Made by a program: the position numbers and the translations under genes
Source: Candidatus Woesearchaeota archaeon
GTDB taxonomy: Archaea > Nanobdellota > Nanobdellia > Pacearchaeales > GW2011-AR1
NCBI GenBank assembly: GCA_964514585.1
Contig: CAZETU010000004.1
Coordinates: 22,726-86,725 of the forward strand
Reading direction: 5' to 3'
DNA length: 64,000 nt
The notes under the pieces: generated by a model
Databases searched by the model: none
Seen by the model: only the letters and a program-made list of their open reading frames with translations
What the model was told of the DNA's origin: nothing
Part shown: piece after piece, positions 1 to 2,532 of the stretch
Layout: each line of letters starts with the position of its first letter
How positions within the stretch are numbered: position 1 is the stretch's first letter

Positions 1-2532
1 ATCTATAAAATCAACGGCCAAACAAAAACAAGACAAGATTTACTAGAGCTACTTTCCCAAGGCGGAATCGACCCAAATGGATTCAACATCGTCCTTCAAG
101 GCGAAATCCAATCTCTAGTCAAAGCAACATCAGAAGAAAGAAGAAAAATAATCGAAGAAGTCGCAGGAATTTCAATTTACGAAACAAGAAAACACAAATC
201 CTTAAGAGAGCTAGAAAAAACCGAAGAGAAATTAAAAGAAATCTCCGCCGTTCTAAAAGAAAGAGTATCTTATTTAAAAAATCTGGATAAAGAAAGACAA
301 GAAGCAATATCATACCAAAAACTTGAAAAAACAATAAAAAAATGCAAAGCAACACTTCTCTCAAGAAGCATGAACGAAAAAGAAATTGAAATTTCAAAAC
401 TCAATAAAGCAATTGAAGAATTCGAAATAGAAATAGAAAAACTAAGAAAATTAATCTATGAAAAAAACGAAGGCGTAGATAAGCTCCAAGACAAAATAGT
501 CGTAGTTAACAAACAAATCCAATCTTCAACTAGCGAAGAACAAGAAATACTACACAGAGAAATATCAGACCTAAAGGCAGATCTTGCAGGATTAAATGTC
601 AGACGAGAAAACTTCGAGAACAGAATTATTCAAGGAAAAGAAAAAATAGATGAGCACAAAGAAAAAATCGAAAATCTAAACTTAGAAATATCAAAAATCC
701 AAACCAGCAGCCCAGAGATTAAAAAACAACAAGAACAACAAAAAATCTTACAAGACAAATTCGACATCCTCGAACAACAAAGAAGAAAATTTTACATGTT
801 AAAATCAGAACTCTCAACCCTAGAAAACCAAAAATTCGAAAAAGAAAAAACATTAATCGAATCGAAAAAAGAAGTTCAACTTATCGAACAAAACATAACC
901 TCGCTATTTCACGAAATCAAATATGCCAAATCAGTAGAAAAAGTCAAAGAGCTGAAAAAAGAATCTGAAAAAGAGATTGACGAAATTCAAAATAAGATCG
1001 CCAAATTAGAAGAAGAAATTTTAGAAAAGGAAAAACGCGTAGCCATTCTTGGACAAGATGTCAAAAGAGAAGAAAAATTAAAAGATGACATTACAAAATT
1101 AGACAAATGCCCAGTCTGCAAACAAGATGTTAAAAACGAATACAAAGACGATATTTCCATAAACGCCAATATAAAAATAGACGCAGCCAAAATCGAAATC
1201 GAACAAAGCATGAAAACCAGAGAAGAAAACGCGAAGAAAATCGCTTTACTAAAACAGTCCCGTTCATCCCTAAGAACAAAAATAAACGAATTAGATATCG
1301 ACCAATTCAAACTGCAAAACTCAGAAGAGAAAAAGAAGCAAATTCAAAAAATAACACTTATGCAAGAAGAATCCCAAAAAGAACTCGTAAAAATTAATGA
1401 GAAAAATCATTCAATACGAGAAGAATTTGAAAAACTAAAAGACATCGAAGAAAAATACGACGACACAAGATTAAAACTGCAAGAACTAAGCTTCGCAGAT
1501 ATGGACGTCGACACAGAAATAACAGTCAAACAAAGAGAAGTAAGTAGATTAAGTATGGAACTAAAATCCTCAACAAGAGATATAGAAGATTCAACAGTAG
1601 AACTCAAAAAAATAGAAGTCCTAATTATTGAAAAAGACAAATTAGTTGGCAAAAAAGAAATTGAAGAACAAAAGCTATATGAAAAATTCCAAAAATTCTT
1701 CGAAGAAAGAAACGAAATCCAAGACCAACAAAAAGTCTTAGAAACCGACGTCGTAGGAATGCAACATACAGCAAGAAATTTCGAAGACAAAATAAACCAC
1801 AACAAAATCCAAAGAGCCCAATACAAAGCTCAAATAGATTCCATCAAATCAGAACTAACAGAATTTGGCTCTATAGAAATACTAAGTATACCAATAGATC
1901 AAATCAAAGAAAGACTCCAAAAATCTCAATTCAAAATATCAAGATTAGGAAACGTAAATCTAAGAGCCCTAGAAGTTTTCGACAAGGTTGGAGAACAAGT
2001 AAAACTAATACAAGAAAAAGTTACAATAATCATACAAGAAAAAGAAAAAATTGAAACCATTATAGCAGAAATTGACAAGAAAAAGAAAAAGTCTTTCTTA
2101 GGAACACTAGAAGCTGTTAACGAATACTTCACAAGAAATTTCAAACAGCTATCCAGAAAAGGCGAAGTCTTCCTAGAACTAGAAAACAAAAAAGAACCCT
2201 TCGACGGAGGGCTAAACATTTTAATCAAAGTCTCCCGTGGAAAATACTTCGACATCACAAGCCTATCAGGCGGAGAAAAAACAATGGTAGCCCTAGCCCT
2301 AATCTTCGCGATACAAGAATACAAACCATACTGCTTCTACGTCTTCGACGAAATCGACGCCGCCCTAGACAAACACAACTCAGAACTCCTAGCAGCCCTA
2401 ATCAAAAAATACATGACAACCGGCCAATACATCGTAGTAACCCACAACGACACTCTAATCTCAGAAGCCACAAATATCTACGGAGTATCCATGCAAGAAA
2501 ATATCTCTAAAATAATTAGCTTGAAACTTTAA
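1..2532 (+). CDS. smc: SMC-family chromosome segregation ATPase, 5'-truncated, with central CxxC zinc-hook-like motif
   Basis: Frame is open from base 1 (IYKINGQ...FNIVLQGEIQ...EERRKIIEEVAGISIYE, the SMC N-head/Q-loop region). Long coiled coils, GNVNLRA neck, LSGGEK signature, FDEIDAALD Walker B/D-loop. CPVC at 1108-1119. Confidence 0.93.
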   Translation: MYKINGQTKTRQDLLELLSQGGIDPNGFNIVLQGEIQSLVKATSEERRKIIEEVAGISIYETRKHKSLRELEKTEEKLKEISAVLKERVSYLKNLDKERQEAISYQKLEKTIKKCKATLLSRSMNEKEIEISKLNKAIEEFEIEIEKLRKLIYEKNEGVDKLQDKIVVVNKQIQSSTSEEQEILHREISDLKADLAGLNVRRENFENRIIQGKEKIDEHKEKIENLNLEISKIQTSSPEIKKQQEQQKILQDKFDILEQQRRKFYMLKSELSTLENQKFEKEKTLIESKKEVQLIEQNITSLFHEIKYAKSVEKVKELKKESEKEIDEIQNKIAKLEEEILEKEKRVAILGQDVKREEKLKDDITKLDKCPVCKQDVKNEYKDDISINANIKIDAAKIEIEQSMKTREENAKKIALLKQSRSSLRTKINELDIDQFKLQNSEEKKKQIQKITLMQEESQKELVKINEKNHSIREEFEKLKDIEEKYDDTRLKLQELSFADMDVDTEITVKQREVSRLSMELKSSTRDIEDSTVELKKIEVLIIEKDKLVGKKEIEEQKLYEKFQKFFEERNEIQDQQKVLETDVVGMQHTARNFEDKINHNKIQRAQYKAQIDSIKSELTEFGSIEILSIPIDQIKERLQKSQFKISRLGNVNLRALEVFDKVGEQVKLIQEKVTIIIQEKEKIETIIAEIDKKKKKSFLGTLEAVNEYFTRNFKQLSRKGEVFLELENKKEPFDGGLNILIKVSRGKYFDITSLSGGEKTMVALALIFAIQEYKPYCFYVFDEIDAALDKHNSELLAALIKKYMTTGQYIVVTHNDTLISEATNIYGVSMQENISKIISLKL

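What the first reader, a model, noticed from the sequence alone, without database searches (positions are those of the whole stretch)
1..2532. SMC (condensin-type) ATPase whose hinge appears replaced by a Rad50-type zinc hook
Seen: the head motifs are SMC-type (FNIVLQG Q-loop, GNVNLRA neck, LSGGEK, FDEIDAALD), not the DEPT Walker B of Rad50/SbcC. The coiled coil runs uninterrupted apart from KCPVCKQ at 1108-1119, roughly midway between the head halves (~310 residues before, ~280 after), and no ~150-aa globular hinge is visible. Established: canonical SMCs dimerise through a hinge, Rad50 through a CxxC hook. Inference: a chimeric hook-dimerised SMC, shorter than the usual ~1150-1200 aa. No scpA/scpB lies immediately downstream.
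Basis: partly seen in the sequence, partly recalled or inferred. Interest (0 to 1): 0.82.

Follow-up and report, generated by a model that had tools for sequence, protein, structure and literature searches.

The report
Natural SMC with Rad50-type zinc hook
This tiny (Pacearchaeota-type, DPANN) archaeon's only chromosome-organising SMC ATPase has no hinge domain. At the exact tip of its coiled-coil arm it carries the small zinc-hook joint of the DNA-repair protein Rad50, a swap I found described only as a laboratory chimera yet conserved across a whole archaeal order.

Summary
The gene runs off the window's 5' end. The full ORF is 954 aa, of which window 1-2532 encodes the last 843.

- **Heads:** they are true SMC heads (Pyrococcus Smc E 6e-98; Rad50 6e-13).
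- **Hinge:** no SMC_hinge was found in this genome or in any of 151 genomes of its order.
- **Hook position:** CPVC (window 1108-1119, residues 481-484) lies at the midpoint. In AlphaFold models it is the hairpin between the two arm helices.
- **Hook type:** a profile of the region hits solved Pyrococcus Rad50 hooks (E 5e-11). Within this genome its only other hit is the resident Rad50 (E 2e-16). The window's own copy alone misses Pfam Rad50_zn_hook.
- **Partners:** ScpA, ScpB and a separate Mre11-Rad50 operon are present elsewhere in the genome.

The most likely reading is an Smc-ScpAB-type complex whose two arms are joined by a shared zinc ion.

New here:
- Some lineages of the same order have SMCs of about 780-900 aa with neither hinge nor hook.
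- The upstream PHP gene is not a conserved partner.

Six searches of the held papers found no description of a natural form. This scan has noted the same thing on other DNA before (103 notes, at least 101 genomes).

The parts
1..2532 (+). smc gene, last 843 of 954 codons plus the stop. The first 111 codons (Walker A GPNGSGKS) lie 333 nt upstream of the window, at G000:C4:22393-22725.
   Evidence: Pfam SMC_N 193 bits; SMC_prok_A 522 bits; Pyrococcus Smc E 6e-98
82..105 (+). Q-loop FNIVLQGE (residues 139-146) of the N-terminal head half
   Evidence: Q144 invariant in 54 sequences
169..1095 (+). N-terminal arm strand (residues 168-476), with helix breaks at 210-219, 346-351 and 417-422
   Evidence: AlphaFold2 model, DSSP and pLDDT; collinear with the canonical SMC arm
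970..1296 (+). Rad50-hook-like module (about residues 435-543): the stretch over which the family profile aligns to Rad50 hooks
   Evidence: A3 profile against PDB 6zff and 1l8d, E 5e-11 and 9e-11; against this genome's own Rad50, E 2e-16, profile positions 11-119
1096..1134 (+). apex loop (residues 477-489), a short beta-bridged hairpin between the two arm helices
   Evidence: fragment model pLDDT 94.5; top fold matches are Rad50 hooks
1108..1119 (+). CPVC (C481, P482, V483, C484), the proposed zinc ligands
   Evidence: C, P and C are the only invariant columns; at fraction 0.50 of the length here and 0.47-0.50 in every full-length member
1135..2151 (+). C-terminal arm strand (residues 490-828), with breaks at 590-592, 610-615, 733-742 and 761-766. 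The breaks at 610-615, 733-742 and 761-766 mirror N-strand breaks about residue 483.
2152..2529 (+). C-terminal head half: signature LSGGEK (nt 2263-2280), Walker B and D-loop FYVFDEIDAALD (nt 2335-2370), H-loop VVTHND (nt 2434-2451)
   Evidence: motif residues invariant

Best explanation
The gene encodes the SMC subunit of this archaeon's only Smc-ScpA-ScpB (prokaryotic condensin-type) complex. In the lineage leading to its order, the globular hinge of about 140 residues was replaced by a Rad50-type zinc hook.

Each chain folds back on itself into a long antiparallel coiled coil, with CPVC in the hairpin at the tip. Two chains are proposed to join tip to tip by sharing one Zn2+ between their four cysteines, as Rad50 does. 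The SMC heads bind and hydrolyse ATP and are bridged by the kleisin ScpA with ScpB. The complex then holds or extrudes chromosomal DNA as other Smc-ScpAB complexes do, without any hinge surface.

Shown here by computation: the SMC identity of the heads, the absence of a hinge, the apex position and Rad50-type sequence of the hook, the presence of the partners, and conservation across the order. Inferred: zinc binding, dimerisation through the hook, binding of ScpAB, and action on DNA.
For: Head identity:
- Pyrococcus Smc E 6e-98 against Rad50 6e-13; SMC_prok_A 522 bits.
- Walker A, Q-loop, signature, Walker B, D-loop and H-loop are all present and invariant.

No hinge:
- Protein, genome, and 0 of 151 genomes of the order, with controls positive.
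- Hinge-bearing relatives carry about 137 extra residues exactly around residues 468-496.

Apex position:
- Full-length model, pLDDT 80: helix 423-476, loop 477-489, helix 490-589, with arm breaks mirrored about residue 483.
- Fragment model, pLDDT 94.5.

Rad50-type hook:
- Region profile against solved Pyrococcus Rad50 hooks, E 5.4e-11 and 9.2e-11, with the next hit at 0.0025.
- 12 of 16 members hit Pfam Rad50_zn_hook.
- Among 2869 ORFs of this genome, the only non-self hit is Rad50, at 2e-16.
- The same profile finds the Rad50-sized ORF in 46 of 61 genomes of the class.
- Foldseek ranks 1, 2, 3 and 5 are Rad50 hooks; 1l8d has TM 0.71/0.84 and rmsd 2.4 A.

Partners and context:
- ScpA 38 bits, over the cut-off, with a homologue in 146 of 151 genomes of the order.
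- ScpB 108 bits, over the cut-off in 143 of 151.
- A separate Mre11-Rad50 operon exists.
- The other SMC_N hits in the genome are ABC-F or ABCE1-type proteins.

Conservation: 148 of 151 genomes of the order have the homologue, mostly 950-1020 aa matched end to end.

Feasibility: a B. subtilis Smc with the Pyrococcus Rad50 hook in place of its hinge supports normal growth on rich medium (PMC5344682).
Against: - No dimer or metal site was modelled or measured.
- The window's own copy does not reach Pfam Rad50_zn_hook on its own. It has Y where most members and Rad50 have H, 11 residues after the first Cys.
- Foldseek E-values are weak (0.012), because helical hairpins are generic.
- Related lineages in the same order do without the hook. 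Tip joining through CPxC may therefore not be essential to the complex.
- scpA and scpB are unlinked to smc, so partnership rests on co-occurrence only.
Confidence: 0.85

Rival explanations
1. A repair-type, Rad50-like function: having gained a hook, the protein tethers or processes DNA ends with a nuclease partner, such as the PHP phosphoesterase encoded 34 nt upstream, rather than organising the chromosome.
For: The hook module is Rad50-type. A co-directional PHP-domain gene lies directly upstream. An earlier scan note proposed it as a partner.
Against: - The PHP protein was found in only 14 of 151 genomes of the order and in none of the 10 other genomes of the genus. In the four genomes with the strongest PHP matches it lies on a different contig from smc.
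- The genome keeps its own Mre11-Rad50 operon.
- The heads are SMC-type, ScpA and ScpB are retained across the order, and this is the only SMC in the genome.
Confidence: 0.05
2. The CPxC is not an intermolecular hook. It would be a structural turn, a redox pair or an intramolecular metal site, with the two chains held together only by the heads, the kleisin and arm-to-arm zipping.
For: Lineages of the same order have SMCs with neither hinge nor CxxC and still keep ScpA and ScpB. No dimer was modelled here.
Against: - Similarity to Rad50 hooks extends beyond the two cysteines, to C-P-x-C-x-x-x-[VIL]-x-x-[ED]-[HY] plus the flanking coils over about 108 positions.
- Two cysteines alone cannot complete a tetrahedral zinc site within one chain, and no third or fourth conserved ligand lies nearby.
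- C, P and C are invariant while the flanks diverge to 15-29% identity.
Confidence: 0.08
3. Artefact: a mis-assembled, truncated or chimeric gene call in a metagenome-assembled genome that really has an ordinary hinge-bearing SMC.
For: The genome is a draft of 18 contigs, 89.65% complete.
Against: - An uninterrupted 954-aa ORF lies inside an 89-kb contig.
- The same architecture is seen in over 100 protein clusters from several sources and in 148 of 151 genomes of the order.
- There is no hinge in any of them.
Confidence: 0.01

Closest known systems
Prokaryotic/archaeal Smc of Smc-ScpAB (TIGR02169 SMC_prok_A; Pyrococcus Smc, PDB 5XEI, 5XNS, 4I99)
   Same: - Head sequence and all ATPase motifs.
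- Long antiparallel arm, collinear with canonical arms up to about residue 470 and from about residue 630.
- ScpA and ScpB in the genome.
- Placed in the tree among hinge-bearing SMCs of sister orders.
   Different: - No hinge domain; about 137 residues are replaced by a roughly 28-residue hook segment.
- The arms look about 25-37 residues shorter per strand in the alignment.
- It scores below the TIGR02169 cut-off (522 against 729 bits).
Engineered B. subtilis Smc(Zh), with the hinge replaced by the Pyrococcus furiosus Rad50 zinc hook (Burmann et al. 2017, PMC5344682); reciprocal Rad50-MukB-hinge chimera (Tatebe et al. 2020, PMC6969161)
   Same: The same architecture: SMC heads and arms with a Rad50 hook at the tip. 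The chimera supports normal growth on rich medium, which shows the design can work.
   Different: This one is natural, fixed across an archaeal order and co-evolved with its arms. Its function has not been tested.
Rad50/SbcC (Pfam Rad50_zn_hook; PDB 1L8D, 6ZFF, 5GOX)
   Same: The hook module: CPxC at the coiled-coil apex with the same downstream motif and fold.
   Different: The heads are far closer to SMC (E 6e-98 against 6e-13). Walker B is followed by DEIDAALD. There is no adjacent Mre11. The genome has its own 682-aa Rad50 with Mre11.
Archaea-specific SMC-related proteins (ASRP: ClsN, Sph1/2; NF045487; PMC9389158)
   Same: Archaeal SMC-superfamily ATPases with a CxxC hook in the middle.
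   Different: The ASRP model scores 97 bits against a cut-off of 300. ASRPs are about 600 aa, are paralogues distinct from SMC, and are not paired with ScpAB.
'Hinge-less' SMC of marine Actinobacteria (PMC12153180)
   Same: SMC heads and arms without a hinge.
   Different: That paper reports no CXXC motif, and the proteins are bacterial. It resembles more closely the hook-less short forms seen here in some Pacearchaeales.

Membership tests
SMC proper (Smc of Smc-ScpAB) | SMC-type ABC head: Walker A, Q-loop, LSGGEK signature, Walker B/D-loop DEIDAALD, H-loop | tested here: met
   Pyrococcus Smc heads E 6e-98; SMC_N 193 bits
SMC proper (Smc of Smc-ScpAB) | Long intramolecular antiparallel coiled-coil arm | tested here: met
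   AlphaFold2 model with pLDDT 80, long helices 168-476 and 490-828, breaks mirrored about residue 483. This is a prediction only.
SMC proper (Smc of Smc-ScpAB) | Globular hinge dimerisation domain (Pfam SMC_hinge PF06470) | tested here: not met
   No hit at E <= 1 in the protein, none over the cut-off in the genome, 0 of 151 genomes of the order
SMC proper (Smc of Smc-ScpAB) | Reaches the curated equivalog score (TIGR02169, 729.4 bits) | tested here: not met
   522 bits in two stretches. The shortfall corresponds to the missing hinge.
SMC proper (Smc of Smc-ScpAB) | Kleisin ScpA and ScpB partners | tested here: inconclusive
   Both genes are present: ScpA 38.2 bits, ScpB 107.8 bits, found in 146 and 143 of 151 genomes of the order. 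They are unlinked to smc, and binding cannot be tested with these tools.
SMC proper (Smc of Smc-ScpAB) | Groups with SMC in a tree of heads and proximal arms | tested here: met
   The order's SMCs form one clade (SH-aLRT 100) placed among hinge-bearing SMCs of sister orders
Rad50/SbcC | CxxC zinc hook at the coiled-coil apex | tested here: met
   Family profile E 5e-11 to PDB Rad50 hooks; 12 of 16 members hit PF04423, though the window's own copy does not; apex position in the models
Rad50/SbcC | Rad50-type heads | tested here: not met
   Rad50 models score about 76 bits or less against cut-offs of 700-1087; PDB Rad50 at 6e-13 against Smc at 6e-98
Rad50/SbcC | Operon with the Mre11/SbcD nuclease | tested here: not met
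   The neighbours are a PHP protein and a peptidase. The genome's Mre11 sits beside its real Rad50.
ASRP (ClsN/Sph) | Reaches the NF045487 cut-off (300 bits) | tested here: not met
   97.1 bits

The most novel reading that the evidence does not exclude
An entire archaeal order runs its only SMC complex without a hinge. That would make it a natural demonstration that the hinge, with its DNA-binding and proposed gate roles, is dispensable for Smc-ScpAB function.

Within that order the Rad50-derived hook was itself lost several times, leaving SMCs of about 780-900 aa with neither hinge nor hook. These must either join their arm tips in a new way or not join them at all.
Probability: 0.6. Interest if true: 0.85.

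Novelty: new variant of a known kind. Interest (0 to 1): 0.75.

Why it matters
What the SMC hinge does is a long-running question in the field. It has been proposed as a dimerisation point, a DNA-binding site, a DNA entry gate and a partner of the heads.

The engineered B. subtilis Smc(Zh) suggested that the nature of the dimerisation domain is 'surprisingly uncritical'. Here nature appears to have made and kept the same swap: 148 of 151 sampled genomes of one order (84 genera) have the homologue, none has a hinge, and the kleisin partners are kept.

This offers:
- a compact natural protein for structural and single-molecule work;
- a set of natural arm-length variants, with paired indels on both strands and forms of about 950, 970, 1000 and 800 aa, to test ideas about arm geometry;
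- sister lineages that dropped the hook as well.

There is also an annotation point. Hinge-based definitions miss these proteins or score them below cut-off, and the short forms are labelled 'hypothetical protein' in public records.

Tried and rejected
- **Pfam Rad50_zn_hook on the window's own protein or its 86-aa hook fragment:** no hit, even at E <= 10. Only the family-level tests succeeded.
- **PHP phosphoesterase upstream as a partner nuclease:** rejected, because the adjacency and the gene itself are not conserved.
- **Other SMC_N hits in the genome as a second SMC:** they are Rad50 and ABC-F or ABCE1-type ATPases.
- **Independent origin of the Iainarchaeum hook-SMC (P0267):** the free tree places it outside the order's clade on a long branch. 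The AU test does not reject a single clade (p 0.245), so this is unresolved.
- **Donor of the hook:** the order's own Rad50 hooks score 39-62 bits against the SMC-hook profile, and those of other orders 23-53 bits. The ranges overlap, so no donor can be named.
- **Literature:** six searches found engineered chimeras, ASRP hooks and hook-less 'hinge-less' actinobacterial SMCs, but no natural hook-SMC. The held library is incomplete.
- **A dimer with zinc:** it could not be modelled with the tools on hand.

Full report
**The object.** Window 1-2532 (+) is the 3' part of an ORF cut by the window edge. The window is G000:C4:22726-86725 in a 1.04-Mb draft genome of 18 contigs, 89.65% complete. The ORF starts 333 nt upstream and encodes 954 aa, kept as P0002. 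CPVC is at nt 1108-1119, which is residues 481-484, the midpoint of the full protein.

**What kind of ATPase.**
- Pfam gives SMC_N at 193 bits, with no SMC_hinge and no Rad50_zn_hook at E <= 1.
- NCBIfam gives SMC_prok_A at 522 bits in two stretches, below its cut-off of 729. The Rad50 models score about 76 bits or less and ASRP scores 97.
- Against solved structures the heads match Pyrococcus Smc at E 6e-98 and Rad50 only at 6e-13.
- BLAST against a hinge-bearing relative (P0147, 1156 aa) aligns both arms collinearly and skips the relative's hinge.
- In a 54-sequence alignment, hinge-bearing relatives carry about 137 extra residues exactly around residues 468-496. They also carry about 37 extra residues after position 357 and about 23 after position 592, which are mirrored places on the two arm strands.

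**A family, not an oddity.**
- Over 100 protein clusters of 946-954 aa, 65-79% identical, come from several sources. They are named SMC of Pacearchaeota or Nanoarchaeota archaea, and none carries PF06470.
- In a library of 1.84 billion representatives, about 25 more distant clusters (down to 37% identity) match end to end. Relatives of 1100-1200 aa match in two pieces.
- Every full-length member has CPxC at fraction 0.47-0.50 of its length. None of the hinge-bearing relatives has a mid-protein CxxC.
- In a sample of 401 genomes of the phylum, all 30 genomes of the window's order showed the end-to-end match in ORFs of 952-988 aa (one split over two contigs). Other orders mostly showed ORFs of about 1160-1190 aa. 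Six unpublished genomes (G322, G243, G396, G360, G333, G244) are among those other orders, and the statement does not depend on them.
- In 151 genomes of the order (9 families, 84 genera), SMC_hinge was found in 0, the homologue in 148, a ScpA homologue in 146 and ScpB over its cut-off in 143.

**Where the hook sits.**
- The full-length AlphaFold2 model (pLDDT 80) has helix 423-476, a loop at 477-489 with a beta bridge at 480/487, and helix 490-589.
- Arm breaks are mirrored about residue 483: 346-351 against 610-615, and 210-219 against 733-742 and 761-766.
- A 121-residue fragment model has pLDDT 94.5 and the same hairpin.
- I could not inspect coordinates. The apex claim therefore rests on the secondary-structure strings, the mirrored breaks and the fold matches.

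**Is it Rad50-type?** At family level, yes.
- A 16-sequence alignment of the region from six families of the order has only C, P and C invariant.
- Its profile hits the solved Pyrococcus furiosus Rad50 hooks 6ZFF and 1L8D at E 5.4e-11 and 9.2e-11. The next hit is a generic coiled coil at 0.0025.
- 12 of the 16 members hit Pfam Rad50_zn_hook, with a best E of 1.7e-5. The window's own copy does not.
- Among 2869 ORFs of this genome, the only non-self hit is the resident Rad50 at E 2e-16.
- The shared motif is C-P-x-C-x-x-x-[VIL]-x-x-[ED]-[HY].
- The same profile picks out the Rad50-sized ORF in 46 of 61 genomes of the class.
- Foldseek ranks Rad50 hooks 1, 2, 3 and 5, although the E-values are weak.

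**Genomic context.**
- scpA (261 aa, C7) and scpB (C1) are unlinked to smc.
- A 397-aa Mre11-like phosphoesterase overlaps the start of a short 682-aa Rad50 by 4 nt.
- The other SMC_N hits in the genome are ABC-F or ABCE1-type proteins.
- The neighbours of smc are a PHP phosphoesterase upstream and a convergent M3/M32-like peptidase downstream.
- An earlier scan note proposed the PHP protein as a nuclease partner. It was found in only 14 of 151 genomes of the order and in none of the congeners. In the four genomes with the strongest matches it lies on a different contig from smc. I reject that idea.

**Evolution.**
- A tree of the first and last 300 residues, which leaves out the trait's own columns, puts all SMCs of the order in one clade (SH-aLRT 100). 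That clade is placed among hinge-bearing SMCs of sister orders.
- Inside that clade, families f119, f120 and f121 and part of f2 have SMCs of 781-898 aa with no hinge and no CxxC. At least four hook/no-hook changes are needed on the tree.
- The f2 short forms are about 165-170 residues shorter than their hook-bearing sisters. They lack the hook and much of the distal arm and have a middle of their own. They still have ScpA and ScpB.
- Because the hook is positionally and sequentially homologous across the order, repeated loss seems likelier than repeated gain. This is an inference on a quick tree with some weak branches.
- A hook-SMC of about 999 aa also occurs in Candidatus Iainarchaeum. Whether that is a second origin is unresolved.

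**Mechanism.** The most likely reading is an Smc-ScpAB-type complex whose arms are joined by one Zn2+ held by four cysteines, two from each chain. That such a design can work is shown by the B. subtilis Smc(Zh) chimera, which supports normal growth on rich medium and keeps the arm-length constraints (PMC5344682), and by the reciprocal Rad50-MukB-hinge chimera (PMC6969161). Zinc binding, dimerisation, ScpAB binding and DNA transactions are all inferred.

**Novelty.** Six literature searches found no description of a natural hook-SMC. The nearest reports are ASRP/ClsN hooks (PMC9389158) and 'hinge-less' actinobacterial SMCs without CXXC (PMC12153180). This scan has noted the same architecture many times on other DNA: 103 notes in at least 101 genomes. 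I class it as a new variant of a known kind.

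Noticed in passing
window 1-64000 and all large contigs of G000: Extreme strand asymmetry. The window's + strand has G 12.2% against C 25.6% (GC skew -0.36), whatever the gene orientation. The large contigs show skews of about +/-0.17 to 0.37.
   Followed up: no
L031-L036 (G431, G427, G433, G404, G403, G409); P0142, P0144, P0146, P0153: SMCs of 781-898 aa in the same order with neither hinge nor CxxC. On the tree they sit among or beside hook-bearing forms, and ScpA and ScpB are kept. 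Public records call them hypothetical proteins.
   Followed up: partly
G519, G494, G476, G424, G472, G484, G506, G489, G438, G439, G426; P0103, P0127, P0132: smc alleles of about 1480-1516 aa in which the match starts at residue 20-38. P0103 carries intein and LAGLIDADG Pfam domains. This suggests an intein inserted at or near the Walker A loop.
   Followed up: no
G000:C4:21507-22355 (L002:10782-11630), 34 nt upstream of smc: PHP-domain phosphoesterase, preceded by an overlapping 83-aa ORF. Found in only 14 of 151 genomes of the order, and not on the smc contig in the four genomes with the strongest matches.
   Followed up: yes
L007:302-1492 and L008:163-2208 (G000:C1, about 285972-289210): Mre11-like phosphoesterase (397 aa) overlapping by 4 nt a short 682-aa Rad50, whose hook reads LENCPTCFQTVSSDHKEKI.
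   Followed up: partly
L047-L053; P0267: Hook-SMC of about 999 aa in Candidatus Iainarchaeum. Two of its contigs are titled Falkowbacteria and Thaumarchaeota, which probably reflects mis-binning.
   Followed up: partly
residues 357 and 592-609 of P0002 (window nt about 736-741 and 1441-1494): Length changes come in pairs at mirrored places on the two arm strands. Some hook forms have +8 to 16 and +10 to 14 residues; hinge-bearing forms have +37 and +23. The sites coincide with the low-confidence helix breaks at 346-351 and 610-615.
   Followed up: partly
L042-L044 (G102, G320, G184); P0205, P0219, P0221, P0222 and others: Hinge-bearing 'mini' SMCs of about 800-945 aa with shortened arms. L042-L044 come from other orders of the same class; the P-numbered ones are library representatives of unknown taxonomy.
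   Followed up: no
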